Shown: positions 40,801-64,000 of the stretch, piece by piece
Numbering within the stretch: position 1 is the first letter of the stretch
Layout: each line of letters opens with the position of its first letter
NCBI GenBank assembly: GCA_964255285.1
Contig: CAXUUL010000014.1
Coordinates: 1-64,000, forward strand
Direction: 5' to 3'
Source: Ionaspis alba
Taxonomy: Eukaryota
Length of the DNA: 64,000 bases
Made by a program: the position numbers and the translations under genes
The notes under the pieces: generated by a model
What the model was told of the DNA's origin: nothing
The model's input: the letters and a program-made list of their open reading frames with translations, nothing else
Databases searched by the model: none

Positions 40801-42718
40801 TTACTCATAAACTCCTTCATGACATTCTTCCATCCCTCGGCCTGACTTTGTGCAGTAAGCGTTTTCCCTTCCCGTGAAAAGGATCTGAACATTTACATAT
40901 GATCAGAATCTCTTCATTAGACCCGTAGCTTTCGAGGCTGGGAGGTGAAATCAAACGTACGACTGGCACAACACCACTGGCGCAGAACGCAGCCATCACC
41001 CACACCGCCACATTCCACCCTTCTCTATCGTATAAGAGACCCGCAAAAGCTGGTCCAACTATCGCACCAAGCGCTAGGGCTGCGTTGAAGAGGCCATACG
41101 CTTTGGCAAAAGCTCCGCCGGGGCCAAAGAGAAGATAGTGCTCTTTCCCCATCTGAGATACAATGTCGTACATATCGGCTGCAAGAGGGGAGAGCATCAT
41201 AGTAATACCAACACCTATATGTACGCCTTAGGTCAGCCAGGGCTAGTCTCAATGACTACCACGGAAGCGATCCAGTGAGGGCAAGGATGACTTGAGATTT
41301 ACCCGTCATAGCAAGAAGGGCACACAGCAATATTATATGTTGAATGCTGTCTTGTCCCACAAGACTTAGCAGCGCCAATGTCAACGTGGAGATCCCGAAG
41401 CCTGCCAAAACCACTAGACGTGCACCCAGGCGATCAGACATTACGCCTACGACCGGAGCAGCCAGGGAAGGAATCGTGAGTGCCAAGAATATTGATCCTC
41501 CTCCGAATGTTTCCCATCCAAAAGTCTTATAGACGAAGAGCGGTAAGATGCTATCAAAGGCACAGACAAGGGAGACTTGAATGAAGCCGCCATACATGGA
41601 AGCTAATATTCCCGGTGACCTCAACAAAATGGCTGTCGTTTTGAGAAATCTCACTAGGCCGTCTCTAGGACCTGATCGATGGTCACTTGGCTGGTCCGTT
41701 GCAGGCTCTCTAAAGCCAGAAGACGAAGAGTTACATTCGTCATCCTCAGCCACATCCTGCAGATCGGTAGTCCTGTTGTCAACTGTGTCTTCTTCTTGAG
41801 CGGAGATTGTATTCCCATTGATTGGTCTGTACTGTCGGTAAGGCTCCCCAGAGAATGTGCCGTAACTATCTCCTAGAATCCATTTCCGAGCGGATTGCTT
41901 CTCGATCATGAATAGGCGCAATATGAAATCTAAACCGATGACAGCCAAGATGGTTGCAAACACTGCGAAATATCCGGCTTTGGCGTATATGATGCCTGCA
42001 ACAAAAGGACCGATCATCACACCAGCACTCAGTCCTGAAAAGGCAGAGCCCATCCACGCCCCAACTTCGTCTCGACCAACAGTGTCAACAAGTAGCGCTA
42101 GGCCAACAGTGTAGACAATACCAGCGGAGGCCCCTTGAAAACATCTGGCGACGACGAGTAGTATTGGATCCCTTCCGAGAGCAAACATTAGAGTCGACGC
42201 AAAGAGCAAGGCGAGGCCAGAGAAAAAGGACTTTTGGCGTGATGACCCTCGATCGGCCAACCAGCCGGCAGCGGCTCATCTTGAATTAGCATTGACGCCG
42301 TATGTAGGGACTATACACACGAGATGCTATAGCCATCGCTAATCCATGAGCCATAAGAAGCGCCGAGATCCAAAATTGGACTAAGAGACATGGAGTTCAG
42401 TTTTCGATGAAGAGCAACAGGATCTCGCATTCCTACCCTCATCCTGAGGAACACCTGATCTGTCAGGAAGGGAGAAAGGAAGGATCGGTACAATCTAAAA
42501 GTGTCAGTCGTACGTTTGAATAACCTTGTGGTCATGGGTTTACTGCTCCGTAGGCCACCCCATCCTGGATCCATGTGAGTTATACGCCGAAAGTAAGAAG
42601 ACCTCTGACGACTTACTGTGAAGGTAGCAATGAAGATTACCACACCGATAAAGGACGTCGAGGAGCGGAATCGCAGCCACCTGGGTGGTCTGGATTGCTT
42701 GTTGTTGGAATTGGACAT
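40801..42718 (-). CDS. MFS transporter, vesicular amine transporter (SLC18/VMAT)-like
   Basis: RFRSSTSFI..ATFT|DG..|IVPILPF, GWLADR, VARCFQGAS, VGLALLVDTVG, AFDSILPLFV, VGVMSDRLGAR and AFAKAYGLFN. About six introns. The last exon ends at TAA 40801-40803. Confidence 0.9.
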
Positions 42719-45700
42719 ATCTCAGAGAACTTGCAGTCACCGACACTTCACTTGCCAAAGCTGCAGAAATGTTAATCCTGTGACCAAGTTTAGGTTCTTC
42801 GATCATCTACACTTGCAGATACAGATGCCAGAAGAGATGGTAGCAGGGGATAGTATCTTCCATTCGTACAGACTAGGTGCGCAGCATGATGTATCATATT
42901 ATACTGGACGTCGAAAATGATACGACGGATAGGGTATGCAGACAAGATATGACCGTGAGAAATGACAGCTTATCCATGATATCTCAATCAGCATAGGCCA
43001 GCTCTGGACCGTTCAGTTCTGCAAGATTCGGCCGAAGACCTCCGCGTCCACCGCAGATCCTCATCGAATCATCTACTTCTCGATACAGATACTCACGCCA
43101 CCGAATCATTTGAAATCCGCCTATCACGTTGGCCGCATACCCGAGTGAAGTTGAACTTCCTCAAAATCTGGCGTAGACTATCCCAACGCTCAAACTGGAC
43201 TTCGGCACCCGTATCAAGACCAAACCTTGGGGTTTCAGGGTCAATCTAGGGCAGCTCCTATAAAGAATGTCGGAGTTATGATTTGCAAAATCCGTTCCCA
43301 TCGTCAGCGAGCTCGGCTCTTCCCAACTTAGACCACATACGTGTAATTTTAGCCAGTGTATCGATAAGTAATCGATCGTTCTCTATAACAAACGATAAGA
43401 CGCACGTTTCAACAGATGTCCTACCACTCACCAAAGAAATCATGCATTTCCAGCCTCTGCAGATACGATTACAGATTTCAGATACGCGAGTACCTCACAA
43501 CCTTAGAGCATCATCATGCTTCTTGGACCGCATACACACTTGACCAGGAGTGGTTGGTTGTTATGCTTGGTAGTCCTGGGCTCCACGACGGTAGGTATGA
43601 GCGCCAGCCATCTCGCTGCAGGCAATATTGGTGCGACGGTCGATGCTGTTGGATGTCGAGCTATCGAACATGGCCAAAGTCTCGTGCATTTGGCTGGACC
43701 AGTTGCCATATAATAGCTGCTTTCGATCAATCGCATCTCTCATTGGATCCAACGGCTTTTCATCTGGCATCTTAGGCTGTTAACCTCTTGCAATTAAGCA
43801 GGCTCCATGTAGTCCTTACCTTCAATATGTTTCCTCTCCTTTTTGTATCCGATCCATTCTTGGGGAGGACCTCTTCACTCACCATCTTTTACGTATAAGA
43901 GGACTTTATGCAGTCGATCATGTTGTCGATCTCAGGCTTTGTTGCGACACTGATCTCCGTATTCATTGGTTCGTTGACTGCTCGCTTACTGCATGCATGA
44001 ACCATCATGCAGCTTCATTCGCTGGTTACAGACCCCGGCACCGGAGTTCGGCTTATCGACCGCATGTCGTCAACAGCGAAATTCGTCATGACACCATTCC
44101 TTGTCTACACTATCCGGTCCCTTTTTTCGAATTTTCACCACTGCAAGCAGCGATGCATGCCAGCGAGCATCTGAACCGCTGTTGATAGGTAGCAGGCAGT
44201 GTTGCTTGCGAACAGTGTCTGGGTTCGACTGCGAAGCAATGTAAGCAATCTTCACGATCGTTGCGAGGCATCACCACTGACCCCACCTCGAGTGATGGCG
44301 AGCAACTCGTTTGGTATGCAGTTTTTGAGCTGCATGGTCTTCCACCATCATCTCTGATATTGCATGCAGCTCCGCAGTGGTCGCACACTCGACCTTGAAT
44401 CCAGCATACCGCATGTTACCGACCACCAACACCGACCTTGCATGCAGTTCCGCAGACGCCAAGCTACATCTGCATTCGTCCAGTTTAGCTGTATGTAGTC
44501 TCTACTCCCTGCTGCTATCGACTATCATTGTGGATACAGCATGCAGTCACAGTGCCTCCCCAATCGAACCAAACCACCAGCTCGGGCGATCCTAACCCAC
44601 GTTCTAGCACCGCTAGCAGTTAGGGAGTAGTCTATTTCGACGCGCAATTTGTTACCGGTATCTTCGATCCTTTCGCTGTCGTAAGACTGCGTGGAGATTA
44701 CTCCAGGATGACTCGCCGTGCGGTTACGCTCCATCTTTGCCAGCAAGTCATGCGTCATGTTTTGGAACGAGGATTCTGAGAAGCCCTGACGGTCGGTGAG
44801 CGTGTGCCCACGTGAGCGCATATCAACATGGCCCGCGATCTGCTACCAGCATTCCCACACACCTTCGAGGAGCGGCGCCGCCGCTGGGCCGGAAACTCTC
44901 AGCAGACATGGGATTCCTTCGCTGAGCCTAGTTCTCCTGCCGCGTATCTTTCAATGCGACGTACACGCAGTGAGCTACCCTTGAATGCAGACTCGAATGA
45001 TTGATCGGATGCCTCGTCCGTTATTCTCGCCGCGGAAATCGATTTACTGCTTGCAGCGCCTTCCGGATACTATTCTATCGTCGGAAAAGTCTTCGATGAT
45101 AAGGATGGGCCACCACAAAAAAACCCCGGATGCCTTTTGAAAAGGACGTCTAAGTTGACATGTTAGAATCTTGGATGAAAACGTAGTAGAATAAGAATTG
45201 TCTGAAATTTACCATATATATCTTTATTGTGTAAAAATGTTTGTATCCCTTCCAGGACCTCAATTGCATGTATTTATATACCCTTCTAAGCTTATGCTGT
45301 AGTGATATAACAATAATGTCGATCATACAAGGGGTCCGGAGTCTGTTGAGTCACGACTACGCAACCATCCATAGGGGGGTGGTCTTGTAGTGTGTAACTC
45401 TGTGGCTTGATTGTAGGCTAAAAAGGTACTATATACATGCGCTAGTCACGTGCACTAGCGTAGCTTTAATCCCTTGGCACTCCTATGGCTGAGTCCCTGA
45501 CCTAATAGAGTCCCTCGTACCTCGGGATCGATAGTCAATATCAGGGCATTTTTGCATGATATCGTCAAAAGAACAACCTAAGAAAAGGGCCGTCATATAC
45601 CAATACCGTGTGGATGAGCCGAAGGCCGCTATCAGTACCTAGTCATGATTGACGACGCATGACATGAAATATGTATAGATTGTATCGCTTGATAGGCAAA

Positions 45701-46226
45701 CGCGGGACTGCTAAATGAATGCATTGGGTTGACCACAATCGTCGTATAGAATATCGATTTTCGTTCAACGACAGGATCGGACATCTTGGACACAAACAAC
45801 GGTCTATTAACAATCCATCAATTGAGAGCAATTGCCAGGGCACCTAGAATAGGTTCTCTTTCATAAGGTCGTACGCTCGCGATGCTGGGGATGTCTTCAT
45901 GATCAAAACAACATTCTTGTGTGTCAACTTCCACAATAGTAATGCTGTAGGTGTGGTTGAAGCCCAACCTTACTCCTCGTATTTACCGGCTAGATGTTGT
46001 ACGGAGGACAAAGACGTTAGGAAGGGACTTACTATCTATAACCGCGAAGATCATCAGGTGCAGTATGGCGGCGTGTCTATTCTTACTGTGCTTCCACCCC
46101 GGGTCTTTTGCTCCATCTAGCCGCGCCGTTTCCAGTTTGAATGCTTCACGCGCGCCAAACAGGCATAGACGATTCCTACTTACCACCAAAAACTTAGCTT
46201 TTGCGAGTCCATAGGTGGACTCTATC

Positions 46227-49200
46227 TCAGAACCCTGGCAAGGGCTTCTCCTCTCGCAGCCACATCAAATTTCTCGCGACCGCTGCCTTGATGCGAGACC
46301 TCATGGGGTCTGCATCGCCGCCACAGTCCGGCTGGGATTCGAAAACTGCACCCGAACTACGTTGCCTGTCCTCGAGCATCCACATCAACGGCCAGAGGCA
46401 GTGCTTCTCGCCGCTTCTTTGCACGTTCTCCCGCATCTCATGCCACCAATGTTCAGAGGGCATTGGTCGTAGCTGGTACCCAGCTTCACGGACGACCTGC
46501 CAGAAATCGGCGATAGTAATGCCGTCCAATATCTTGACGACTTGGACTTTTGCGCCAATCGAAGGCTCCATCGCTGCACGGATCGTCGAGCGAGCAACAG
46601 TCTCGACGTCGGATAGGTAAACAAAATTGTTCAGCTCATCACCATTATGAGCTTCGATCTCTATTGCGCCTGCCACCAGCCTCCAGAGGTAGTCGGTCGT
46701 GTTCGCGACCCCATCTCGTACCGATCCGATGATGTAGGACGGCTTGACAACGGAAAAACAATGGTGAGATCCCAGTCGGCTAACGGCGACATTCTTAACA
46801 AGTAACTCTGAGGCCAATTTTGTCTGGGCGTATCCGTTCGAGGCCGTGACCTGTTGGAGATTGGCAGCGTCGTCATCGTCCCCTCCAGGCGTTAACTGCT
46901 GGCCGCCGGACACGTAGACGAATGATTTAGCAACCGAGGACCTTTGCAATGCTTTGAGTAGTTCCATGGTCGACAACACGTTGGCATCTTTTAGCGTTTC
47001 GTAGTCCGTGTTCCAGCGAACGACTGCCCCGTTATGAATAATGACGTTCACGTCTTTACTGAGGGTCTTCCAGTGCTCGTCTACTAGACCCAATCTGGTC
47101 TGCTGGAGATCTCCCGGCCATATCTCAATTCTGTCTGGGCATCGCAGGATAGCCTTCCCTGCTACCTCAGCGATGCGAGCATGACCTTCTGCTTGGCTTT
47201 TGCAGCGTACGAGGACGAATATCTTTTCACATTCAGATCTGCTGACAAGTTGACCCAAGATCTTACGGCCTAAGTATCCTGTTGCACCGGTCAGGAAGAC
47301 GAGCTTAGTCCTACTAGTCAATTTGACTGGTTTTGTGGCAGGCTGTGTGTCCCGAGCATGCAATTCAGAACACATCGCCCCGACTTCTTGAAAGAGCTTG
47401 ACGGTTGATGCACTCTCCAAAGGGTATTTGATAAGATGAGCGAGACCAGAGATAGTAATTGTATCTGAAGTAAGTTTAGATATTGGGATATTAGCGTCGA
47501 ATTGCTTCTTTATCCACACCCTCAGCGTTATAGCTTGAATGGAATCGAAGCCGACGGCCGCAAGGCGGAAATCGTACCCGATCAATGATGTGAGTCTATG
47601 GTTGTTCCTCGATGCCAACAGTTCGGCGACTTTGACGCTGATCTCGTGGGCAAGGGCGTTTGATAGTGGAAGTGGAAGAAATTGGTTCTGATCCTGGTTT
47701 CCCAATACAGCGATCTGGGTGTCATTCGCGTCTAGCCCGGCCAGGAGGTCGTCTACCTGACGCCGATCAACCTTGATGGACGTAGATAGGGGAATCCGGT
47801 CAGTGGCCAACCAAACAGAAGGAATCATGTACTTAGGCAGCCTCCCCTTCATGAACGTTTTAGCTGTATTGTCGTCATGACTAGCGACTTTGTCGCACCG
47901 TTCAATCACAGCTACAAGCTGATTTGCGTACTTGCCGGTCTTTGGAAAGGCTACCATGGACTTTGCTACCCCATAGTATTGCGCGAGTTGATTCTCGATC
48001 TCTCCGAGCTCAACGCGCTGTCCTCGGATCTTGATCTGGGTATCGCTCCGGCCTACAAACTTGAGGGAGCCATCAGTCCTGTACTGAACCAGGTCCCTGG
48101 TCCTATAAAAGCGATGTGCACTTGCTCCTACGTTCGTAAGGAGCCACGCCGGACTTTCGATGAAGGCTTCTCGCGTGCGTGACTCGTCATTCAGGTAGCC
48201 GCGAGCCAGCGTGGGGCCTTCAACTAGCAGTTCCCCCACTGCCCCAATGCTGACGAGTCGATCCACATCATCCTCGGCGACGACCCAGAACTTGAAGCAG
48301 GGTAGCGGACGACCAATCGTATCTGGTGGGCTGTCGCAGCTAGCGTATTCATAGGCGGTGCATCCTCCGCATTCGGATGGTCCATAGCAGTTGATGAGCC
48401 GGACCATGCCCGCCCAACGCTCTACCTGCTCCTTCTTGACCTCTTCTCCGGCGAGTATGATGGTGCGCAGGAACGGGACGTCTTCTGGAGCGAATGTATT
48501 TGAGAAAGAGGGCGTAATATCTGCCCAGTTGACTTTCATGTCGTTGATGACGCTAATGATCTCGTTCTTTCTTTGAAACTCGGATGGCATACAGACACAG
48601 CCTCCGTGTATAAGAGTGTTGAAGACTAGTCGCAACCGTCAGCACGTATTTTGCACGGGGCTTGGTAGAAGAACCGTAGGCTGTGAATTAGGGGCTTACT
48701 CACTGTCGACAATGGAGACGTCGAAAGCATAGCTAGCCCCGGTCGGTCAGAACGCCTCTTATCCAGTGACTATGCAATCCCAAATGCACAGAGGGATGTC
48801 AAACTGAGATTCTTGCACGGAGTCTACTCGTCATAGTCTCCTTGGTCACTTGCCCCTTGGTCCTGATATACGTGCAAAGAATTTGACAACGAATCACGTA
48901 CCTTGCGAATTGCAACACCCGACTATTATGATCAACGTACAAAGCCTCCCCATACGCCTTGCTGATGGTGCACACTGAAGCATGCTCCTGGACCACACCC
49001 TTTGGCTGTCCCGTACTTCCGGAGGTGAATAGCACGAAAGCTGGGGACTGCGGCGAGACGATCACAGATTGCATAGATGATATTCCTGCCTTGCATTTGA
49101 AAGAACTGTCCACGACAACGGTCTTCACCTCGGAATCCTCAAAGGTAGTTCTGTAGGTCGGCGAGGTGAGTACGAAACGTGCATTAACGCTCCTGACAAT

Positions 49201-50270
49201 TGCCTTCGTCCTGTCGGTTGGATTGGACGGATCCAACGGCACAAAAGCACCCCCTGCGAAGGTCAGCGTCCATCAAAAACGCGATAGTGGTATTTATTGC
49301 CTGCTTTCAGTATGCCGAGCATTGCCACAGCAGCCCATTGCGACTTTTCGAAATACACCGGCACTAGTTCTCCAACGCGTATTCCGAGATCGCACATATG
49401 AGATTTTAGATTTCCGGAGACCAAGTCAAGCTGATCGTAGGTGAGATCTCCATCCCACGCGTGTATAGCAGGCGCATCAGGGCGATTTTTGACGTGCCGG
49501 CTGATTTCTCCGTGAACGGTGGACTCCACACTCTGTCGGATACCGCTGTTCCACGCAACAATTTGGTCAAGGTCGCGGCCGCTCAAGGACCGAACCTCAC
49601 CAATCGTTTGTTTCGGGTTTTCCAATAGGCTCTGAAAGAGAGTGCGGCAGGTGTTGCCCACGTTGAGTATCGCCTCTTTGGTATAGTCGGAGCTTTTGAA
49701 GTGGATCTCCAGTATCAATTTCCCCAACCAGTCATTGAAGACTGCTACAAGACCGTTGTGGTACATCTGGGGCAAGTTAGCAAATGGGTGAATGTCTATG
49801 GAGGTTGATAATCTCACATGTCGGTGTTCATTCAGCATCTCTCTTTCCTCTGACTCTTTGTCACTACATAGACCTCGTGGCTTCGACTGAGTGTAGAGCA
49901 TCTTCGTGTTCAGCAGAGGAGTGGCTTCCCACAGGGTGCTGTCTACGACAGATGAAACATGTGCGTAACAAAATTCAACGCTTGAAACGGTCTGTGACTT
50001 GGATATTACTGCAGAGCAGACGTAGCCTGGTTGTGTGTGGAGTTCACCTTTGCTGGTATTGCCCTGTATGCGAAAAGCGACGGTCTCATTCCCTGTATAG
50101 ACGCGAAGCACGAGAGCCCAGAGAAGCTCATACAAGTTCAATTGTCCTATGGCTTTCTGAAGTGTATCGAGCTTCGCTTTGTCATTGCAGAGTGAGAAAG
50201 TCAATGCTTGAGCCTTACCCGCATGGGTAGTTATTGCATAATCGAGGGTGGGAAATAAACAAGGCTCCAT
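46227..50270 (-). CDS. Monomodular NRPS-like enzyme: C-domain remnant, A, T and terminal reductase (R)
   Basis: A-domain motifs LTYDQL, ILKAG|GAFVPLD, FTSGSTGQPKG, FA|SYAFDVS, NCYGPSE, GELLVEGPTLARGYL and GRSDTQIKIRGQRVELGEIE. T-domain GFDSIQA. R-domain VFLTGATGYLG, IIHNGA and GYAQTK. Introns include 49300-49254, 48901-48733 and 48703-48626. Confidence 0.93.
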
Positions 50271-50355
50271 ATTCCACTGTAGAGAGACGAGGACGGCCCA
50301 AGATACGGAGCGAAAAGGACTGTGCAGGTGGGAGAAAATAGAATGATAACCTCTT

Positions 50356-52390: not shown

Positions 52391-53541
52391 TTATAGAGTT
52401 CCATGCTCAACCAAATATCCGCCATCAACTGGGAGAATCACTCCGTTCAGGTACTGACAGCAGGCCACAAACACTACTGCGCTCGCCATATCCATGTGGG
52501 TCCCAACTCTCCCGCTGCTGATGTCTTTAACAGCCGGCCAAGACTCTTCGTCCAGTGTGCTCTTGCCATTCAAACTGGGCGTGCCAGCGGTTATCTCCGA
52601 CGGAAATACTCCCGGTGCGATCGAGTTGACGCGGATGTGCAGCTTCATCCTTGCAATCTCCGTCGCAAGCATCTTGGTCACATGGATCGTCGCTGCCTTG
52701 GCCGCGTTGCTCGCAAAATGGTTGAGAGACGTTCTGATGAGGCCGTTGATGCTGCTGATGTTGATTACGCAGCTCTGGTAACCAGGGTGCTTGGGACTGC
52801 TGCCGCGGGCAAGGAGCGGGAGGAAGGCTGTTGTGACAAAGTAATGTGAGGCAGCGTTTGTGCGGTAGACATTTGTCCAGTCGTCAAAGGTGGCATTGGG
52901 ATGGTCGAAGAGATTCGCTCTTGCTTGGGACGCATCTTCGCCTTTGGGTTGCTGCGACGCGCTGTATATGCCCGCATTGTTTATCAAGAGATGTAGAGCC
53001 TCCTCTTTTGTTTCGACTTCATGAGCTAGGCGTCTGTGAAGAAGAACCTGTTAGATCGCTGTCCGAATTGCTGTAATGAGTAACAAACTGCCAAGGAAGC
53101 GTTTGTCTTCTTCTCCTGCCCCTTCTCCTTCGCCGCACCCTCTTACGTTCACCATCTCCACGACCAGCGCCTCGCGTCCTTTGACTGGGAAGTCGATCGT
53201 GATAGACAAGACTTACTTGATGTCTTCCTTGTTAGCCACATCGCCCACGAGCGGAATGATCTCGCCCCTAATATTCTGGCTGTACACGTCCGCAGCCGTA
53301 CGCAACTTGCTCTCTGTCCGCCCAACAATATAAACCTTTGCTCCATTGACTGCGAGAGCCTGTGCAGCCATCAATCCTATTCCAGTGGCCCCGCCCGTAA
53401 CCAAAGCCACCTATGTGGAGGGTTAAACTCTATAACGCCGAAATTCTTCTGCTGGAAACACCATACCTTGTGCTCGACGTTGAAAAGAGAATACAGCTCG
53501 AAGTCTGCATTGTCTGTTGCCATGTTCTCTGAGGTGGCCAT
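52391..53541 (-). CDS. Classical short-chain dehydrogenase/reductase lacking the catalytic Tyr
   Basis: LFNVEHK|VALVTGGATGIG, LINNAGI, VINISS, HFASNAAK, RVNSIAPGVFPSE and VDGG. Two introns. Confidence 0.9.
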
Positions 53542-54849: not shown

Positions 54850-56272
54850 CTAGACAGACGCTGCTTCAATAAGGGTCTCGCCTGCACGCGTGTCAGTGTG
54901 AATCCAGCCATCTTTCTCCGAGACAGCTCACCTCCATCCGGAAAAAGTGTCTGGGCAGTATAGAATGTGCCACCCCTCCCAGCGAGGAAAAGAATTGTGG
55001 CTGCCATGTCAATCTCATGCCCGGCCCGGCCTGCAGCGTTGGTGATAGCTCTCGTCAATTTCGACTTTTGGTCGGGACCTGAGCCACCGGCGGTCATCTG
55101 AGAGCGATTGTAAGCGTGCCTGCCGTGATAGACTATTCTTATTGAGGCGGCTAGGGACTGGATGACAAACCTCGGATGGGAATGTTCCAGGTGCAATCAT
55201 ATTGACCCGCACCTTTGTCTGAGAGAACAAGTGCGCCAACATGCGACTCAGGTGAACAAATGCTGGGCAAACATCAGCCTAGGAATCGTGTCTTATCTTT
55301 ATCTGGCGGATTTTCCAACACCTACCGGCTTTTGAAGCCCCGTAGCTGATGTGGCCCCGCGTGGTGTTCTTCAAGAAAGCCGAGTTGCTTGTGACGTTGA
55401 CCACGCTAGAGGTATAACCGGGTATAACGTCACATCCTTGTGCCAATAGCGGAAGAAAGCCGATTGACATGAAATATCCTCCCATACAATTCGTCGTGAA
55501 GTTCTGTTGCCAGCTGACGGGGTCTGACTTCCAGAAATGCTCGGAGATGGCCACCGGATCCTGGAAGTCGGGAGCCGGATTTCCTGCAAACTCGGTAGCG
55601 TAGTCTCTTGCAATACCCGCGTTGTTGACAAGAAGCTGGATGCCGTTTGGCTCTTCGCTTGAGACTTTGTCCACGAGTTTCTTGATCTCGTCCTTCTTGC
55701 TAATATCAGTAACGATACTAGAACAACGTCGAAGTCAGCAGAAACGAGCTGGATGTCTCTTCCGGCCAAGGGATTTTCCTTGCAATCATGGGAGCCTTTA
55801 CGGGATGATCTTGCCAGGGCCGGTGTTGTAAAGCTCCATCACTAAGCGCGGGTGTTAGGACAAAGTGTACAGACGAAAGATTGGTCCCGCATGCTCGGTC
55901 TCGTGCACTGAGATTGGAGCAGTCTAATAAGGATACTATTATACCTACCAACTTTCAGCGCCTCCTCACGAAGCTCAGCGACGTAGACCTTCGCCCCATT
56001 GGATACCAATGCCTCGAAGTTCTAAGTCAGTCCATGCCCTTCCGAAGTCGAACTGTTCACAATCTCGTGGTGCTTCAAGTCTGTATTACCTGCGTGATCA
56101 TCAACCCAATACCACCTGCGCATGGCCATTAGCCTTGCGTTTCTTCGCCTTTGCGATTAGCTCCACAAGATTACTAACTTCCACCTCCTGTAACAACGGC
56201 AACGACGTGGGAAACGCAGAATATTTTTGAGCTCTGGAGGTCTACATTTGTTCCTGGCTTTGCGAATGCCAT
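54850..56272 (-). CDS. Classical short-chain dehydrogenase/reductase (multi-exon)
   Basis: MAFAKP..VAVVTGGG|SGIGLMITQ|..ALVSNGAKVY, LVNNAGIAR, SYGASK (YxxxK), RVNMIAPGTFPSE and FPDGG|ETLIEAASV*. Confidence 0.9.
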
Positions 56273-56652
56273 TGTCGCTAACTTGCGCTAACAACCGACA
56301 GAAGGTTCGGAGCAAGAATACCGTTGCTTTAGGTGCGTAGGTATTTGACTCAGCAATTGACTTCAGAGAGTTGAGGACGATATCTTATCGCAAGCAAATG
56401 ACTCCGAACACAATTTCGCGTTGGAAAAACTCCATGGGAAGCTGTCACTGCATTTGGGAGAAAAGCAAATGAGCCAACATCGACTTTTCAAGAATCAAAA
56501 TGCTTTTGTTTTGCTGCTTTTCTGTACTATGAAAGAATGGAAATGATGAGTTAGTATACTTTTCGTCAAACATGCCGAACGCTTTTTGACCTTGAGATTG
56601 GGTTTCTGCTATCCTGATAGGTCGACCTGAGGGATCCGATCCCATAGCTGCA

Positions 56653-58471
56653 TCACGAGGCATGAACCTGGACTCGCGTAAATTGCACCCAGAGTGCGTC
56701 CTCGAGTGAGCCTGGAGAATGGCAGCCAAAAGTCTCGGTGCGGACCGGTTGCGCAGTGAAGTTCGAAAATATCAATGCCAAGATGTATCGCATTACTGGT
56801 AAACGTTAGTCCCCTTCCTGTCGATCAGTATTTTGACGTGCGGCAACTGACGGTACTGAGACAGATTCGACCCCGCACACATCCTAGGGCCGCTGCAGAA
56901 ACCCCACATCTGGTTCTCGCCACTGCATTTAAGTAGCTTTCCATCGCTGTCCAGCCACCTCTCGGGTATCCACTCGTCCACCCGATCCCACTTCTTCGAA
57001 TCCCTGTGCACAAACCACTGGAAAGCGTTGACGCGCACCCTTGGCGGGATACCCTCGATACCAGCGAGCCTGACAGACGAGTTTGCAGGGGTAATGCGTG
57101 GGAGAGGTGTGCTGTTGGGACGCATGCGGAGGGACTCGCAGATGATGGCCGAGAGGTATGGCAGCTCGTCTAGCGTTGCTGCAGAGGGTAGGTGCTGGTC
57201 GTGTAGATTGAAGGAGTCCGAGCTCGACAGGTGGTGCATTTCAGGAGCAGCGGAGGCGATCTCTTCGCGGAGCCGGTGTTGCGCTGTTGGCTTTTGGGAG
57301 AGGTAGTAGAGGGTGTAGGCAAGAACGAGACCTGCAGGATGTAAGACAGTGGAGCTGCCCAGCAGCCTGGCGATATACTAGCTTACCGAGGACTTCCCTG
57401 GAGGATGCTGTATATGTAGGCTCTTAGTGCCTCGAACGCTTTTCAAGAGATCAATACTTACACATGTGGTCGAATAGCTCGCTGGCAACCTCAATTTGTT
57501 TGGAATGGGCATCCAGGTGGCTGGAGTCTTGATCTGTAGCGCCTTTCACACGAGCATAGACGGTGGGAAAGTCTGCGGGGTTTTCTAGAGTCGATCTTTC
57601 GCCCCTCCGCATTGCAGTGTCCGCTGCCTCACACATGGCCATCATCCAAGACTCCATCCACTTCTTCGAAGTTGATGCACGTTTTGGGACTAAGCATACC
57701 CCGACCTTCTCAAGAGTTCTTGTAAGTCGTGGCAACTCCTGGGGCCAGAAGCTCTCCGCGCAGTATCGGTTCTCGTAATGCTCAAGGAATGACTTGATAT
57801 CCTCTCCCTTCGTCAAGAATTTGGATCCATTGGACTGGCCGAAGAGGTAGGCGTTGACAAGATCAAGGCACATCGAGTAGCTGAGCTCGAGAAGCTCGGT
57901 CTGCTGGGATGTAAAGGCGTCATTTTCCATCCTCGGGACAAGGCCACCAAAGAGTATCGTCTCCGTGACGGCTGTAAGCTGGGGGGATGTAGAAAGGGCG
58001 GACTTCGCATACACTGCAGCAATGCGTCGTCTGTGCGTGCTGTGACTTTCCCTGGTCAGGCTGCTAAAGGCATTCTCCATCCTACACCCAGCATCAGCAA
58101 TGAAACCGAGCAAGTACGATGGATTCCATGACCTACCCATAGTAGTCAAAGAAGGAATACCACGGAGGCTTGTCAAAGCCTCCATGGTATACAGTCTTGA
58201 TCCCATCTTCAAAGCAGCTTACGCTGATGTCTTGGGGTCCGAGCCTGACGATTGGTCCCAATCTTTCATGAGCTTGCCTAACGACATGTAACTCCAGTCT
58301 CCTGTAACGTGTGACAAGAATCCATAGAGAACTCAAGGGCGAGGACCAATGGGCGTTGGGTACCTTGGCCAATGGGGAGATGTGCAGAGGATATACAACG
58401 AAATGGTAAAGCAAGGAAACACCAACCAATCCAGCCGCTAAGATCACTGCGTAAGAGCCTTGGAAACCCAT
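56653..58471 (-). CDS. Cytochrome P450 monooxygenase
   Basis: N-terminal TM followed by SPLAKVP, GPIVRLGP, ExxR (ESLR), PERW and heme motif FCSGPRMCAG. A 21-nt microexon at 57407-57387. Stop at 56653-56655. Confidence 0.95.
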
Positions 58472-59375
58472 AACAATGATGAATCAACGGATGGGCTACA
58501 ACTGTAGAGGAACAAGGTTTTCGTTCAGAGAAAATTAAATCAGCCTACCGTCCGCTTGCCCCTTATGGTGCTTCCATCCAGGACCAAAGAGGGTATTCGC
58601 ACCTAAAATTTCCTGTCCAATATAGGCCATATTAGAATTAGGGCTTGAAGTACATACACCCCTGTGTTAGTCCCTTAGCTGCCATAAGGCACATATGTAA
58701 ATGCGATCTTGGCTAGCATGGGGAAGTTGAGAATGTACCCTGTAAACAACATATGTAGGCCATATCGGAACAAGAATCCTAGGTGTGACTACATAACCTA
58801 TTACACTGCTTCAGAGATGTCCTGTTGTTGAGCTGTGCAACTCCGATCTCGCTTACGATGTGAATATCAGGGACAATAGTTCGCGCAAGCGTCTAGCGCC
58901 GATCACGATTTAGAGTTCTGACTGGGGCGTTCTGTTGTACTGTACAGTAATGAAAGTTACATGTAAACTACAAATCTGGTGTAAAGCCTTGGACTACGAA
59001 GGTGTCTTTCAACACTGCACCACACAGCTCCCCGGCATAAGATTCCTCGTAAGAGTACTACAGGGCTTTGACATAAGCGAGTGAGCTGGCGTGGGAGTAT
59101 ACCAGTGCCCACTTTTTCTCCCAACATTTCAAGCGACATTTGCGGTGGAGGGGCGTTTATCCTCACCAGTCGTAGTCTACATGTATGCTACATTCCCTAA
59201 TCAGCTTGGTATCAACCTACACCTGCAAGTTGCGAATCATATGACTAACGATTCGTCGATCGAGTGGTGATCAAGGCCACCATGGCATTCACATCTAGCC
59301 TACAACTATCTCTGATATCCCCACGCAACAAAACATCTTGCCATTACACAAAACGAGTTACGAACAAGCCAAAGA

Positions 59376-60665
59376 ATGGCAGTCAACGCTACTTCCAGCT
59401 TCAAACCCTACACCTTACATCCGATGCCGCCTCTGGTTCCCGGGATATCGGATCTACATCTCGCTCTATTCGTCCCTATTGCCGTCCACTGGCTCACCTC
59501 GGGGTGCTTCGAAATTTGTGAGCGAACCGGCTGGCTGGGGCAATATCGGCTGCATACAACCGCGGAGGAGCTCACGAGGAATCGTGTTACACGGCTCGAA
59601 TGCCTACGCGTGACGCTTCAATGTCAGGCAAGTCTATTCTTGTGGATTTGGCATTATGCAATACCTGATAAAATACAGGGCCTCCAGACACTCATGGGGC
59701 TTGCGCTAGGTATGCTTGGCGAGGGCGATGTCACGGGAAATGAGGACTACGATCTTGCTGTTTGGATCAGCAGAGTGCATGCTGTCTTTGCAGCACTCCC
59801 CACACTACTCTACCTCACTGGCGTCGATTTTAAGAAAATGGCGATCACGCCATCTGGATTCGGGTCTTTCCTTCCTACGATAGGACACCCTGAACTTGAC
59901 ATGCACAGCATCGAAGTATCGATAGGCACATTGCTGTACCGGTATATTGTACCAGTCTTCCAGCTTGCCTATGCACTGATTATCGCGGATGCCTGCATGT
60001 ACTGTCTTCATCGCCTAGGACATACGAACAAATGGATCTACAGTAAGTCCTGAGACCTCAACCAAAAGGTGTTCAGCACATTGACAAGTCCTAGAACATA
60101 TACACTCCCAACATCATAGGCTGTACGTCCCATATTCATGGGGTGGCTCGTACAATCATCCTGTCGATAGTTTATTCCTTGACGGTCTCAGCTATGGTAT
60201 CGGCTGTGGGGTTTCTGGCTTGTCAAACAGGCTGTCTATTATACTTTTCGCCTACTCATCATTCAAGAACGTAACTGACCATTGTGGGTACCTGTTCCCG
60301 TGGAATCCGATCCGCTCGGTCACAGGGACTGATGCCGGCTTCCACGATGTCCATCACCAGAGTTGGGGCTTAAAGGCAAGCTCTCGTGCATCCCACCCAA
60401 GCTGTGAAGGCTAATTTCGACCAAGACAAACTTTGGAGCCCATTTGGCTCTCTGGGATCGTATGATGGGAACTTATTTTGCCGATGAAAAGCAAATTTCA
60501 AGGCTTCGTATGAAGAACCGTGTTGCAGCTCAAGACCTCGTATCCGCACAGGGCGTTAGCACGGACGCAGCGGACTTGGTTCTCCCTCAATGCGACGAGA
60601 AGGCTCTAGGCGGAGAAGGTGGCGGTGACTCAAAGGCTGTAATAACCAGGTCTTTCTTGTGCTGA
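59376..60665 (+). CDS. Sur2-like fatty acid/sphingolipid hydroxylase (membrane di-iron), copy 1
   Basis: QYRLHTTAEELTRNRVT. His boxes HRLGH, HSQHH, YNHP, DHCGY and HDVHHQSWG. C-terminal WDRMMGTY. Introns 59628-59678 (GC-AG), ~60043-60094 (GT-AG) and 60376-60425 (GC-AG). Confidence 0.92.
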
Positions 60666-61492
60666 CGACGAATACCGAGTTGACAGTGGGACTATACCTA
60701 GCGGTCCGGTAAACGGAGACAGATGGCCTAAGTCTGCGCGTCAAATTGCAATCGGGTTTGCGATAGTGCATGGCCAAGTCCAGGCACGCCATGTTGATGT
60801 CTCATGCTATGTAGGTTAGTGATGAGTTCTCAAAAGTAACGCAGAAGGTTTTTTCACCACAGCGCTCACCCGTGATCTGAAAGAGCTCAGTCTAGTTCTA
60901 GCGTAAGAACATTCCAACTTGCAGGTGCGTCGTCTTTTGTTGGCTGTGGAGCATACATTTCACCATTGAGGTAATGTAATGTAGTAACGTGGTGCATGAG
61001 TATTGGCGCTACTGCTAGTTGACGATTCGGCCAATAGGCATTAGCGTGCGAGGACAATGCTAGGTCATATCATGCTCAAAACGAGACCCCGGCTGCACTG
61101 ACATGAAGCGGAGGTTGCGCCGATGGTGTCGAGGATATATATACTCTTGGACGTATCACCTGCATGGTCGCGAAGCACAGTACATCCTGAGGATGCAGCA
61201 GCATGCGGAGGTGAGGAGATCGCGCAATTCCCGCATGATTTTAGTCAGGCGTGGACGGCTTGCGCGATTGAACTTGCCGACCTTGTCAAAAGCTGCGTTG
61301 CTTGTTATCCCGTGAACGTCAACTCATCCTCCCTCATACAATTTTCATGTCCAAGCACCGAGCGCCTATTGTTGTCATAGGGTAGCAAGGCCGACATATG
61401 CCGCCGCTGCACTCGGGATCGATACGAGGTAATCTAAATGCTAGTTTGAGCGTAGCCCAAGGTCTCAAACAGAATTTATTGCATCCCGAGGT

Positions 61493-62586
61493 TTAGGACT
61501 CAACAGCTTCCTTCAACGACACTTCCAAACCAGTAAATCCTGGCCTGCCGTATCGCCGTAGTAGCTCCTGAGCTCTTTTTGTATCCACAATCTTCAAGTC
61601 CCTCGGTGCATCCTTGATCCTTTCGAATTGCCTACTGCCATCGCCGTAGCCTTCAGCGTCAATTTTCTCCATCAAAACCGCCGTGTCGTTGAAATTGAAC
61701 GGGCCCGCGAAAGCCAAAAGCCTTTCCCCTATAACATCCTCTTCAAGTAAAGCCGCAATGTGTAACAGCGCTGTATCTGTCACATTGACGTAATGTTGAG
61801 GCGGGAAGTGATTCCTTAGAAGTTTGAGCGTCTCCGCATCCCCTTCCCACATCTTCTTGTACCAGCCCCCTGTCGACGCTGGCTGCTCCTTGGACAAAAT
61901 CCTCCCAATGTTGCAATTTGGTAACACGGCATTGAGGACAAAAGCAGGTTTCTCTTCCTGCATAAAGCGCCAACACTCTTTTTCCGCTAGTGTTTTACTC
62001 GCCGCATATACGGCCAGCTTTCTGTCGTCGTTATAGGGCGGAGGTGCCCATGCGGCTTCAACGTCGGCGTCATTCCAGGAGGATACGTCAATATGGAACT
62101 TCTTGTTCGCTATCGGCGCGGTCGCTGCAGCGGATGAAGACGTGTAGACGAAGCGTTTGACGCTTGGGTTGCGCGCCGCTGCGGTGAGGGCGTTCTTAAT
62201 TCCAGACAGCACCATTGGTAGCACTTTATGCGGGTCCGGATTCAGAGTGAGGTCGGAGGCAACGTGTATGACGCCTGCACAGCCTGTCGAGCCTCAGCAT
62301 GACAGTGGTGAGCAGTGCGCGTTTGGAGTACAATCTGACCTTTCATGACCTCGTCGAAGGCACCGCCCGTAGCCATGTCCTTAACGATCTGGACCTCGAA
62401 CGCATCCTCGCCGTACTCCTCATCGAAGAGTGCGTGCATATAGTCGGCCTTGTAGGCATCGCGAACGGTACCACGAACACGGTAGCCGTGCTCAAGGAGC
62501 TGTTTGGCGATATGGCTGGCGATATACCCGTTCACGCCTGTGACAAGGACGAGGGATTCTTTGGGGATTGCTGGCATGGTCTTCAT
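61493..62586 (-). CDS. NAD(P)-dependent extended SDR, aldehyde reductase II/Gre2-like
   Basis: VLVTGVNGYIASHI, GYRVRGTVRD, G|CAGVIHVAS, VKRFVYTSSSAA and YAASK. One intron, ~62339-62287. Confidence 0.93.
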
Positions 62587-63014
62587 TATTAGCCTTGCAA
62601 CCTTAGGCTTCTCGAAGGTTATAAGAGGGTTGAATATTGAGATATGTAGAAGTTACTCGAAAAGATTCTGGCCAGCATGACGAGGAAACCGTGACGCGGG
62701 TGTTTTCTGTGACGTAAACCGCAGCCGATTACATTTATAGTACGTGGTAATAAGTATCTACACAGGTCCGTACACGCCAAGGATTAACTAGGCCCACACT
62801 CTCCCCGTGCCAAGGCATCAGCCCTCCTGTCATGCAGGGGTTTTAAACCGGAACCGATTTTGCCTTTACAACGTTTTCGCTACATACTGCATGTTGAGTA
62901 GACTATGAATGAGGAAGATGTGAGAGTTATTGCTAATACCCTATTGAACGGACAGTGGTGGAAAAGATGTCCGCAAGAGTTTCACGTGAGCATTACTCGC
63001 ACTGCCAATTGGGC

Positions 63015-64000
63015 TCAAGCCAATTTTTCACGGAGATTTGACTTCCTCCCCCTTTCCTTTCCAACCATCTCCGCTGCCTTGCGGTCCCGCGTATATAATC
63101 TAGATGCAGCTTCGGTGTCCGTGAACTCAGTCCCCAGAAGGCGATCCCAGAATCGGAAGTGAAGGGCAAAATTGTTCTGTAAGATATATTAGGAAGAAGG
63201 GTAGGAAGGGGATGAAAAGAGGAGTTACCTTGAAACCCCATCTCTGATGGTGTTTGTCGTGATAAGCAGCGTCGACTGAGGTAAAGAGATCCATTGGATT
63301 CCAAGGAAAGGTATATCCGCCGTGATCGGTACAAGCTTTTGCGGAGGAAAAGGCCGAGAATACCATACTTTCCCTCAATGTCATCCCGGAACCGATGACA
63401 GCAAACACAAAGGCTCCGACGCTGAGAAAAAGGCTCTCGATAGGGTCGTCATAGATTCCGCCCCAACTATAAGTCACGTTCAATCCATGATGACGGGCGT
63501 GAAAATGTTCTACACCATAGCATTGGTCAGTGATCTCTACAGACGTGATCTCACTTACTGTACAACCATTTGTTGCTGTGCTCTGCCCGATGAATGAAGA
63601 AGACCCACGTATCCGCTAGCCATAGAGCCACGTAGAGTCGTAATGCAGGTATCAGTCCGTAGTAAATGAGTTTAGCCGCTAACAACTCCGCCTCTTGTTC
63701 CGCTCGACCTGACGCGAAGAAAGTTGTGACAGAGACGGAGCGGGAAACGGTAGCGATGAGCGCCTTAACGTTAAGGCCAGAAGATGACAGTAAAGTAAGA
63801 ATCGCTTGTCCAAGAACATGCACTCGACTTGCCCAGATCGTTATATCGCGGCCTTCGTTACCAATTGTCTCTACCTCGGAGAATGCTCCGAGTACGATTC
63901 CAAGACCGGTCTGTAAAATCTAAGGCTTGGAGATTAGGCCAGCTAAAGGCAATGGAAGCAAGTTATAACGTACCTGCACTAAAAGTACGCCACGGAGACA
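63015..64000 (-). CDS. Sur2-like fatty acid/sphingolipid hydroxylase, copy 2 (5' end beyond the window)
   Basis: VLLVQ|ILQTGLG. His boxes HRAEH, HARHH, DHGGY and HDKHHQRWGFK|NNF..FWDRLLGT. Three introns at the same positions as in copy 1. Stop at 63015-63017. Confidence 0.9.

What the first reader, a model, noticed from the sequence alone, without database searches (positions are those of the whole stretch)
40801..64000. Candidate undescribed biosynthetic cluster: reductive NRPS-like enzyme with twin Sur2-like lipid hydroxylases, a P450, three SDRs and an amine-type MFS
Seen: eight consecutive genes are all biosynthetic or transport, with no housekeeping gene among them, and the run is cut by the window edge. 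Established: A-T-R enzymes release aldehydes or alcohols. Sur2-family di-iron enzymes hydroxylate acyl or sphingoid chains, and hydroxylases of this superfamily occur in some lipid-metabolite clusters (e.g. ahd1 in the ustilagic acid cluster). SLC18-type MFS proteins carry amines. Inference: the cluster makes a hydroxylated lipo-amino-alcohol or sphingolipid-like metabolite. An acyl-chain supplier (HR-PKS/FAS or acyl-CoA ligase) and a regulator may lie to the right of the window. I do not recognise this gene combination from any characterised cluster.
Basis: partly seen in the sequence, partly recalled or inferred. Interest (0 to 1): 0.85.

Follow-up and report, generated by a model that had tools for sequence, protein, structure and literature searches.

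The report
Uncharacterised lichen-fungus reductase gene cluster
This stretch of a lichen-forming fungus holds a real eight-gene biosynthetic cluster of unknown product, built around an enzyme that reduces an amino-acid-like acid to an aldehyde, and its core genes also sit together in distant insect-killing fungi.

Summary
At 40.7-64.0 kb lie eight genes and no recognisable housekeeping gene: a DHA1/SLC18-like MFS, a 1249-aa NRPS-like reductase, two classical SDRs, a P450, a Sur2-like di-iron hydroxylase (FAH1), an aldehyde-reductase-II-type extended SDR (AR), and a second hydroxylase (FAH2) cut by the window edge. Housekeeping genes lie to the left.

Best hits place the window in a Teloschistaceae lichen fungus. 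Locus tags show the same gene order in Ikaeria and cf. Caloplaca. NRPS-like relatives share a contig with FAH1- or AR-type genes on 10 contigs, including four Ophiocordyceps species. All 10 carry the window's substrate-pocket signature, which 47 of the 120 listed relatives have. This refutes "no conserved linkage".

The N-terminus of the NRPS-like enzyme is a condensation-lobe remnant without the catalytic His motif, as in Lys2-type reductases, so it cannot attach a lipid. No acyl-chain supplier is in the window.

I read this as a real, uncharacterised cluster that reduces an amino acid to an amino aldehyde or alcohol and then oxygenates it. The sphingolipid-like product remains conjecture. 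No RNA data, MIBiG comparison or direct view of neighbouring genes was available. It is a new variant of a known kind, of moderate interest.

The parts
40716..42718 (-). MFS transporter (DHA1 type, SLC18-like), about 523 aa, 6 predicted exons
   Evidence: Pfam MFS_1 E 3.7e-29 and 7.3e-11 on two exons. TIGR00880 scored 62 bits, below its cutoff of 131. All 16 PDB matches at E<=1e-3 are VMAT1, VMAT2 or VAChT, best E 2.5e-11 over about 110 residues. Gene model.
46227..50270 (-). NRPS-like reductase, 1249 aa in 4 exons (50270-49301, 49253-48902, 48732-48704, 48625-46227). Domains: C*/ADA-like lobe, A, T, R. The intron at 49300-49254 is GC-AG.
   Evidence: Pfam AMP-binding, PP-binding and NAD_binding_4 (E 1.9e-43). 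TIGR01746 thioester reductase scored 223.6 bits against a cutoff of 213. Exon joins checked against the Ikaeria homologue. Motifs A2-A10, the T-domain Ser, GATGYLG and YAQTK located. N-terminal fold.
52391..53541 (-). Classical SDR 1, about 303 aa, with TGGATGIG and NNAG motifs. The catalytic Tyr position reads Ser (AGC at 52711-52709).
   Evidence: Pfam adh_short and adh_short_C2. Best PDB matches are Spm14 (9K8Q, E 7e-20) and RhlG (2B4Q, E 4e-15). Alignment to SDR2, codon.
54850..56200 (-). Classical SDR 2, made of many short exons, with TGGGSGIG and YGASK motifs. Start codon not fixed.
   Evidence: Pfam adh_short on two exons. The Rossmann-motif exons were read by eye. Model. It shares 93 of 269 aligned columns with SDR1.
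56445..58630 (-). Cytochrome P450, about 570 aa, heme motif FCSGPRMCAG. The N-terminal exons and one 21-nt exon are uncertain.
   Evidence: Pfam p450 E 9.2e-24. Model. The N-terminal exon found only 26 representative clusters at E<=1e-30 among 1.84 billion proteins.
59376..60665 (+). FAH1, a Sur2-like di-iron membrane hydroxylase, about 345 aa in 4 exons. Intron 1 (59628-59678) is GC-AG and in frame. His boxes are HRLGH, HSQHHRLY and HDVHHQ.
   Evidence: Pfam FA_hydroxylase scored 42.8 bits on one exon against a cutoff of 31, and 86.7-89.4 bits on full-length relatives. Alignment A1, tblastn, intron.
61493..62586 (-). Aldehyde-reductase-II-type extended SDR (AR), 339-342 aa in 2 exons
   Evidence: PDB 1UJM 'Aldehyde reductase II' E 3.3e-46 over query 4-264. 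Orthologues at 65-91% identity. Tree. Model.
63063..64000 (-). FAH2, a second di-iron hydroxylase. His boxes HRAEH, HARHH and HDKHH are present. The first roughly 70-85 codons lie beyond the window edge.
   Evidence: Pfam FA_hydroxylase scored 34.9 bits against a cutoff of 31. Its best aligned segments are 27-53% identical to the 44 FAH1-family proteins. His boxes. A Logan contig of the source run continues 1298 bases past the window.

Best explanation
This is a genuine, uncharacterised secondary-metabolite cluster of a Teloschistaceae lichen fungus.

Proposed route:
1. The core enzyme has a Lys2-type layout: a non-catalytic condensation-lobe remnant (C*/ADA), then A, T and R domains. It adenylates one alpha-amino-acid-type substrate, loads it on its carrier domain and releases it by NAD(P)H-dependent reduction as an amino aldehyde. 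The domains and motifs are shown. The substrate class is inferred from the retained Asp235 and Lys517, and from a roomy pocket with an acidic residue at position 278.
2. The aldehyde-reductase-II-type enzyme, and/or the SDRs, take the aldehyde (or its cyclic imine) on to an amino alcohol or amine. This step is inferred.
3. The two Sur2-like di-iron membrane oxygenases and the P450 hydroxylate or desaturate a hydrophobic part of the molecule. This step is inferred from family membership.
4. The SLC18-like MFS exports the amine-bearing product. This step is inferred.

The cassette of NRPS-like gene plus FAH1-type gene (plus AR) recurs in other Teloschistaceae and in Ophiocordycipitaceae, so the genes are held together by function.
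For: Gene content and integrity:
- Searches show the A2-A10 motifs, the T-domain Ser, the R-domain GATGYLG and YAQTK motifs, three His boxes in both hydroxylases, and the P450 Cys motif.
- The R domain scores above the cutoff for thioester reductases (223.6 against 213 bits). It matches a solved NRPS reductase domain (6NKI, E 9.5e-53).

N-terminal domain:
- The model has a mean pLDDT of 70.
- 102 PDB matches reached E<=1e-3. The listed rows are NRPS condensation, heterocyclisation or multi-domain NRPS structures.
- No HHxxxD motif occurs in any of 15 N-termini.
- This matches the ADA/C* domain described for Lys2-type reductases (PMC7884236, passages read).

Linkage:
- Ikaeria carries AR, FAH1 and NRPS-like as Q9222_003527, _003528 and _003532. 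The tag spacing fits the window's gene order.
- cf. Caloplaca carries Q9220_002184 and _002189.
- O. australis carries CDD81_2582 and _2587.
- O. camponoti-leonardi carries CP532_3047 and _3060.
- O. unilateralis carries XA68_13375 and _13386.
- Five unnamed contigs also hold two of the genes.

Pocket signature:
- All 10 linked NRPS-like proteins carry D-[IV]-A-C-[GA]-C-K at pocket positions 278-517.
- 47 of the 120 listed relatives carry it. None of the other 73 is linked (with tables matched by eye).

Other support:
- AR is of the aldehyde reductase II type.
- A related species at about 90% identity covers all 30 bins of 44-64 kb. The indels listed for it lie outside my predicted exons (84 further indels were not shown).
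Against: - No product, no expression data and no regulator gene are in the window.
- No shared promoter word was found in the six upstream regions.
- Synteny within one family could be simple descent.
- In Ophiocordyceps the partners lie 5-13 genes apart. In O. australis the AR-type gene is on another contig.
- Cross-class NRPS-like identity is only about 41%.
- Contig identity for unnamed records rests on equal contig lengths.
- Pocket positions use GrsA numbering that I recalled. It is only indirectly checked by the 1AMU row.
- SDR1 lacks the catalytic Tyr and may be inactive.
- The fold match of the hydroxylase model to Scs7p is within noise.
Confidence: 0.6

Rival explanations
1. The cluster is the same, but the product class differs. 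The amino aldehyde cyclises or dimerises, as in the tyrosine, leucine or phenylalanine reductase pathways (LnaA/LnbA, HqlA, AsaC, BrsA). The product would be a pyrazine, piperazine or cyclic-imine alkaloid. The SDRs would act as imine reductases and the oxygenases as late tailoring enzymes. It would not be a sphingoid-like lipid.
For: - The set A-T-R plus SDRs plus P450 plus MFS is the pattern reported for amino-acid-reducing fungal reductases. 'Clade I' enzymes are said to lead to piperazine cores (PMC9605436, passages read).
- Asp235 is retained, and an acidic residue at pocket position 278 would suit a basic side chain that cyclises.
- The MFS is amine-transporter-like.
- No acyl-chain supplier is in the window.
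Against: - The enzyme has the extra C*/ADA domain of the Lys2 type. I recall LnaA and HqlA as plain A-T-R enzymes; this comes from no call.
- Two membrane di-iron hydroxylases of a lipid-acting superfamily are the most conserved partners of the core gene.
- A dedicated aldehyde reductase argues for the alcohol, not for self-condensation.
Confidence: 0.22
2. There is no single pathway. The NRPS-like gene merely lies next to lipid- and aldehyde-handling genes: Sur2-like hydroxylases, an aldehyde reductase and SDRs that serve membrane-lipid remodelling or detoxification. The shared order in Teloschistaceae would reflect common descent only.
For: - AR-type genes at 73-75% identity occur in Cercospora berteroae and Ustilaginoidea virens, where no linked NRPS-like gene appeared in my lists. 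In O. australis the AR-type gene lies on a different contig.
- No shared promoter word was found.
- No regulator gene is present.
Against: - NRPS-like and FAH1-type genes share a contig in two fungal classes, and only for the pocket subtype of the window: 10 of 10 linked proteins against 47 of 120 overall.
- The same lichens keep ordinary AR paralogues elsewhere, in a separate clade.
- The FAH1 family is small: 44 proteins at E<=1e-3 in 5.8 billion clusters. That does not suit a housekeeping enzyme.
Confidence: 0.1
3. The core enzyme is a Lys2 paralogue that still reduces alpha-aminoadipate, or a related acidic amino acid at its side-chain carboxyl. It would feed a semialdehyde (piperideine-6-carboxylate, pipecolate-type) precursor to the tailoring enzymes.
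For: - The C*/ADA-A-T-R layout is so far tied to enzymes that activate alpha-aminoadipate (PMC7884236).
- The Lys2 model TIGR03443 is the best NCBIfam hit of the large exon, and it weakly matches the N-terminal exon (E 1.8e-6).
Against: - The score is 252 bits against a cutoff of 1030, although only exon fragments were scored.
- The A-domain part scores best with the generic amino-acid adenylation model.
- The canonical alpha-amino-binding Asp235 is retained. From memory, side-chain carboxyl activation does not need it.
- The true Lys2 of this fungus was not available for comparison.
Confidence: 0.07

Closest known systems
Lys2/Nps3-type L-alpha-aminoadipate reductases (ADA-A-T-R)
   Same: Same four-part layout. 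The N-terminal domain is a condensation C-lobe remnant without HHxxxDG, followed by adenylation, carrier and NAD(P)H thioester-reductase domains. The ADA/C* domain is described in PMC7884236.
   Different: It scores far below the Lys2 equivalog cutoff (252 against 1030 bits on the 803-aa exon). It lies in a tailoring-gene cluster rather than standing alone as a lysine-pathway gene. Its pocket signature DVVDIACGCK was found in no paper.
Amino-acid-reducing fungal NRPS-like enzymes and their clusters (LnaA/LnbA, HqlA, AsaC, BrsA; 'clade I' of PMC9605436)
   Same: An A-T-R enzyme reduces an amino acid to an amino aldehyde and is clustered with SDRs, a P450 and an MFS (for the enzyme classes; the cluster contents are recalled).
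   Different: This enzyme has the extra C*/ADA domain. Its partner genes include two di-iron membrane hydroxylases and an aldehyde reductase II homologue. I know of neither from those clusters, and neither turned up in searches.
Sur2 sphinganine C4-hydroxylase and the FA_hydroxylase superfamily (PF04116)
   Same: Length of about 340 aa, a helical membrane protein, three His boxes and a Pfam match. One source names two relatives 'sphinganine C4-monooxygenase'. A nearest named Atlas cluster is 'Related to SUR2 protein', score 0.97.
   Different: FAH1 belongs to a small, patchily spread family (44 hits) that is linked to an NRPS-like gene. FAH2 is a further lineage, at most 53% identical in any aligned segment. 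Substrate and regiochemistry are unknown.
VlmA of the verlamelin cluster and Ahd1 of the ustilagic acid cluster (fatty-acid hydroxylases inside metabolite clusters)
   Same: They are precedents for a fatty-acid hydroxylase encoded in a fungal peptide or glycolipid cluster. VlmA is mentioned in a table of PMC13236867.
   Different: Those clusters have a full NRPS with an acyl ligase, or a glycolipid pathway with a fatty-acid supply. Here there is one reductive module, twin hydroxylases and no visible acyl supplier. No sequence comparison with VlmA or Ahd1 was made.
Aldehyde reductase II of Sporobolomyces salmonicolor (PDB 1UJM/1Y1P/1ZZE)
   Same: An extended SDR of about 342 aa, matched at E 3.3e-46 over 261 residues.
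   Different: The window's gene belongs to a separate 13-row clade (100/100 support). The clade mixes Teloschistaceae, Hypocreales and Cercospora, apart from the ordinary paralogues of the same lichens.

Membership tests
NRPS-like carboxylate/amino-acid reductase (A-T-R) | Adenylation domain with core motifs | tested here: met
   Pfam AMP-binding on three exons, and 212.5 bits on the full-length Ikaeria orthologue. LKAGGAFVPLD, FTSGSTG, FDVS, NCYGPSE and the A10 Lys were located.
NRPS-like carboxylate/amino-acid reductase (A-T-R) | Carrier domain with a phosphopantetheine-attachment Ser | tested here: met
   Pfam PP-binding E 3.7e-5, 24.3 bits against a cutoff of 20.8. GFDSI at residue 809.
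NRPS-like carboxylate/amino-acid reductase (A-T-R) | Terminal thioester reductase with a Gly-rich NAD(P)H motif and YxxxK | tested here: met
   TIGR01746 scored 223.6 bits against a cutoff of 213.35. GATGYLG at residue 897 and YAQTK at 1049. PDB 6NKI E 9.5e-53.
Lys2-type L-aminoadipate reductase (TIGR03443) | N-terminal ADA/C* domain: a condensation C-lobe with no HHxxxDG | tested here: met
   Foldseek gave 102 matches at E<=1e-3, and the listed rows are NRPS condensation-type structures. No HHxxxD in 15 of 15 N-termini. No Pfam Condensation hit.
Lys2-type L-aminoadipate reductase (TIGR03443) | Score at or above the equivalog cutoff of 1030.1 bits | tested here: not met
   251.9 bits for the 803-aa exon and 25.6 bits for the N-terminal exon. 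The spliced whole protein was not scored.
Lys2-type L-aminoadipate reductase (TIGR03443) | Activates L-alpha-aminoadipate | not testable with these tools
   This needs an enzyme assay.
FA_hydroxylase superfamily (PF04116), Sur2-like | Pfam match above the gathering score | tested here: met
   The FAH1 exon scored 42.8 bits and the FAH2 exon 34.9 bits, against a cutoff of 31. Relatives scored 86.7-89.4 bits.
FA_hydroxylase superfamily (PF04116), Sur2-like | Three histidine boxes (HxxxH, HxxHH, HxxHH) | tested here: met
   FAH1 has HRLGH, HSQHH and HDVHH. FAH2 has HRAEH, HARHH and HDKHH.
FA_hydroxylase superfamily (PF04116), Sur2-like | Orthology to Sur2 (sphinganine C4-hydroxylase) rather than to Erg3, Erg25 or Scs7 | tested here: inconclusive
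   Only automatic names support it: JGI 'sphinganine C4-monooxygenase' and Atlas 'Related to SUR2 protein', 0.97. No tree with reference enzymes was built. Fold searches were within noise.
Aldehyde reductase II-type extended SDR | Full-length similarity to the solved enzyme | tested here: met
   1UJM E 3.3e-46, query 4-264 against chain 83-337. The N-terminal exon carries the Rossmann part (Pfam Epimerase).
Classical SDR | TGxxxGxG, NNAG and catalytic YxxxK | tested here: not met
   SDR1 has TGGATGIG and NNAG, but the Tyr position is Ser (SNAAK). SDR2 meets all three, with TGGGSGIG, NNAG and YGASK.
SLC18 / DHA1 amine-type MFS | Closest to vesicular amine transporters | tested here: inconclusive
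   16 of 16 PDB matches are VMAT1, VMAT2 or VAChT, but only over about 110 residues, with best E 2.5e-11. TIGR00880 scored 62.1 bits, below its cutoff of 131.
Any characterised cluster (MIBiG) | Full-cluster match | not testable with these tools
   No MIBiG or antiSMASH was on hand. Full-text searches found no described cluster of this make-up.

The most novel reading that the evidence does not exclude
A mobile cassette makes an undescribed family of hydroxylated amino-alcohol (sphingoid-mimicking) amines. The cassette is a Lys2-layout reductase with the pocket DVVD[IV]AC[GA]CK, a Sur2-like di-iron oxygenase and an aldehyde-reductase-II-type enzyme. It would have moved between lichen-forming Lecanoromycetes and insect-manipulating Ophiocordycipitaceae. 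The support for movement is that AR-type proteins of three fungal classes form one clade whose cross-class distances are as small as within-family ones.
Probability: 0.2. Interest if true: 0.75.

Novelty: new variant of a known kind. Interest (0 to 1): 0.5.

Why it matters
Lichen fungi are hard to grow, and almost all of their known chemistry is polyketide. A conserved non-polyketide cluster is a concrete target for heterologous expression. The C*/ADA domain has so far been tied to enzymes that activate alpha-aminoadipate. A subfamily with another pocket, sitting in a tailoring cluster, would widen what that layout can do. Sur2-type membrane hydroxylases as conserved partners of a reductive NRPS-like enzyme are not described in the papers I could search. 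The presence of the same core in Ophiocordyceps, with very similar AR proteins across fungal classes, raises a testable question of gene transfer. It also hints at a shared bioactive amine.

Tried and rejected
- Own genome: none is held, so the right flank could not be read. A Logan contig of the source run ends only 1298 bases past the window.
- Earlier findings of this scan: nothing by place or by sequence, and only unrelated bacterial entries by words.
- Metagenome scan with the FAH1 alignment: 2 loci. One is an 1818-base contig and one is a doubtful 37% match, so it gave no usable synteny.
- RNA: no RNA holder was listed, so splicing and co-expression are untested.
- Shared promoter motif: no 7- or 8-mer occurs in 5 or more of the 6 upstream regions, and there is no recurring CGG-Nx-CCG.
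- Extra genes in the gaps at 42.8-46.2, 50.3-52.4 and 53.5-54.8 kb: no Pfam hit and only weak codon scores.
- Fold of the hydroxylase: Foldseek gave no match at E<=1e-3, with Scs7p at rank 4 and E 1.1. VIA-align wide gave a best Z of 4.1, with Scs7p at Z 3.9 over 167-182 residues. This is within noise.
- Sequence search of P0121 against PDB: nothing meaningful.
- The first Atlas search gave unnamed clusters only.
- True Lys2: rejected on score.
- Literature: searches found no matching cluster, locus tag or pocket code. A search for 'Spm14' gave only unrelated papers.
- My first splice script crashed and mis-spliced the GC-AG intron. It was rewritten.

Full report
**Observation**

I translated every stop-to-stop ORF of 75 aa or more from 37.9 to 64.0 kb (100 ORFs) and scanned them against Pfam. 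I then scanned 99 more ORFs, mostly shorter ones from the gaps.

| Gene | Coordinates | Strand |
|---|---|---|
| MFS transporter | 40716-42718 | - |
| NRPS-like A-T-R enzyme | 46227-50270 | - |
| Classical SDR 1 | 52391-53541 | - |
| Classical SDR 2 | about 54850-56200 | - |
| Cytochrome P450 | 56445-58630 | - |
| FA_hydroxylase FAH1 | 59376-60665 | + |
| Extended SDR (AR) | 61493-62586 | - |
| FA_hydroxylase FAH2 | 63063 to past 64000 | - |

- No other family reached E 0.01 between these genes. My codon-usage scan found no strong ORF in the gaps.
- To the left (90 ORFs) lie Prp19, a KTR-type mannosyltransferase, RanBP1, WD40 proteins and OHCU decarboxylase. The left border is therefore sharp.
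- The genes are rich in short introns. I derived models with a splice-aware script (after a failed first version) and checked them against homologues.
- Two introns are GC-AG: 49300-49254 in the NRPS-like gene and 59628-59678 in FAH1.

**Organism**

- No whole genome is held.
- The large exon of the NRPS-like gene finds relatives at 61-90% identity. All seven named ones are Teloschistaceae: Seirophora, Ikaeria, cf. Caloplaca, Haloplaca, Xanthomendoza, Teloschistes and Pyrenodesmia. The next tier is at 45% or less.
- The window therefore comes from a lichen-forming fungus of that family.

**The core enzyme**

- The spliced model has 1249 residues. It carries all the adenylation motifs, the carrier serine, a Gly-rich NAD(P)H motif and YxxxK.
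- The reductase part passes the NCBIfam thioester-reductase cutoff (223.6 against 213 bits). It matches a solved NRPS reductase domain (6NKI, E 9.5e-53).
- The first roughly 240 residues have no Pfam family.
- Folded with 19 homologues, this part gave a mean pLDDT of 70. It gave 102 PDB matches at E<=1e-3, and the listed rows are NRPS condensation-type structures (best Txo1, E 3.5e-10).
- No HHxxxD motif occurs in any of 15 N-termini.
- This is the C*/ADA domain: an isolated condensation C-lobe known from Lys2-type reductases and from module 1 of ACV synthetase, where it is needed for adenylation but is not catalytic (PMC7884236, passages read).
- The enzyme is not Lys2 itself. TIGR03443 gives 252 bits for the 803-aa exon against a cutoff of 1030.
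- Because the N-terminal domain lacks the active site, it cannot attach an acyl chain. That removes one route to a lipo-amino product.

**Substrate pocket**

- Using the GrsA numbering, which I recalled, the ten pocket residues read DVVDIACGCK.
- The numbering fits the 1AMU row, where query 30-227 aligns to chain 268-458. That places my positions 278, 299, 301, 322, 330 and 331 as assigned, if that stretch is ungapped.
- Asp235 and Lys517 are kept, as in enzymes that bind an alpha-amino acid.
- Small residues at 301, 322, 330 and 331 and an acidic residue at 278 suggest a large or basic side chain. This is inference.
- No paper holds this code.

**Tailoring genes**

- FAH1 and FAH2 both pass the Pfam cutoff and carry three His boxes.
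- FAH1 belongs to a small family of 44 proteins at E<=1e-3. One source names two of its members sphinganine C4-monooxygenase, and the Atlas places it beside a cluster named 'Related to SUR2 protein'.
- FAH2 is a separate lineage. Its best aligned segments are 27-53% identical to those 44 proteins.
- Fold searches with a model of a FAH1 orthologue were within noise.
- The 'third SDR' is an aldehyde reductase II homologue (1UJM, E 3.3e-46). It fits a step from aldehyde to alcohol.
- SDR2 is canonical. SDR1 has Ser where the catalytic Tyr should be.
- All 16 solved-structure matches of the MFS are SLC18 vesicular amine transporters, but only over about 110 residues.

**Conserved linkage**

I therefore compared locus tags and contig lengths across three homologue tables.

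- Ikaeria: AR, FAH1 and the NRPS-like gene are Q9222_003527, _003528 and _003532. This is the spacing expected from the window's order.
- cf. Caloplaca: the NRPS-like gene and AR are Q9220_002184 and _002189.
- O. australis: FAH1-type and NRPS-like genes are CDD81_2582 and _2587.
- O. camponoti-leonardi: CP532_3047 and _3060.
- O. unilateralis: NRPS-like and AR-type genes are XA68_13375 and _13386.
- Five unnamed contigs also hold two of the genes. That rests on equal contig lengths.
- Ten contigs in all show linkage. All ten linked NRPS-like proteins carry D-[IV]-A-C-[GA]-C-K at pocket positions 278-517.
- 47 of the 120 listed relatives carry that signature. None of the other 73, mostly DVML[AV]GCA[CS]K, is linked (tables matched by eye).
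- The Ophiocordyceps enzymes are only about 41% identical overall but share the pocket. That argues for the same substrate.
- Logan contigs of a related species at about 90% identity cover all 30 bins of 44-64 kb. The indels listed for it fall outside my exons (84 more indels were not shown).

**A side result on AR**

- In a 44-row tree, the window's AR groups with 4 Teloschistaceae, 7 Hypocreales and Cercospora berteroae in a 13-row clade with 100/100 support.
- The path from the window to Cordyceps sp. RAO-2017 is 0.22. The path to Xanthoria steineri is 0.17.
- The ordinary AR paralogues of the same lichens sit in a separate Lecanoromycetes clade.
- This suggests either gene transfer or unusually strong constraint. 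I did not test topologies.

**What I conclude**

The cluster is real and conserved, and my searches found no description of it. The most likely route is as follows:

1. An amino-acid-type substrate is reduced to an amino aldehyde.
2. AR or the SDRs reduce it further.
3. The two di-iron enzymes and the P450 oxygenate it.
4. An amine-type MFS exports it.

The sphingolipid-like product is possible but unsupported on the acyl side. A cyclised or dimerised amine alkaloid, as in the known amino-acid reductase clusters (PMC9605436, passages read), is the main rival.

**What stays open**

- Expression is untested: no RNA holder was listed, and no shared promoter word was found.
- The genes to the right of FAH2 are unknown.
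- No MIBiG comparison was made.
- The genes lying between the linked partners in other species could not be seen.

Noticed in passing
window 49254-49300 (- strand) and 59628-59678 (+ strand): Two GC-AG introns lie within one cluster. The donor is GCAATA in the NRPS-like gene and GCAAGT in FAH1. The FAH1 intron is 51 nt, in frame and free of stops, so it reads through as 17 extra residues in a naive ORF call.
   Followed up: partly
window 45344-45479: A short repeated element sits in the gap between the MFS and the NRPS-like gene. Summed Logan contig depth rises about tenfold in that bin, and to 2400-4300 against about 130 at single sites. Many short contigs end there in two runs. It looks like a dispersed repeat.
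   Followed up: no
window 52709-52711 (- strand): SDR1 has Ser (AGC) at the catalytic Tyr position of the YxxxK motif. Its neighbour and paralogue SDR2 keeps Tyr. Two base changes away from Tyr, so it is unlikely to be a sequencing slip.
   Followed up: partly
window 61493-62586 and proteins P0171-P0196: The AR protein is 84% identical to a protein of Cordyceps sp. RAO-2017 and 73-78% identical to proteins of Ophiocordyceps, Ustilaginoidea and Cercospora. All form one 100/100 clade, with cross-class distances as small as within-family ones. This may be horizontal transfer.
   Followed up: partly
window 38634-39467 (- strand): A 278-codon ORF with a codon score as high as the cluster genes (37.4) has no Pfam family. 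It lies just left of the MFS gene. Whether it belongs to the cluster is unknown.
   Followed up: no
window 5131-5230: A run of 100 N, which is an assembly gap.
   Followed up: no
window 33787-37302 (+) and 19990-22701 (+): Two very long open frames (1172 and 904 codons) have no Pfam family at E 1e-4.
   Followed up: no
proteins P0046-P0120: A second large subfamily of the same C*-A-T-R layout has the pocket DVML[AV]GCA[CS]K. It occurs in many Lecanoromycetes and Leotiomycetes, including paralogues in Teloschistaceae. It shares no contig with FAH1- or AR-type hits.
   Followed up: partly
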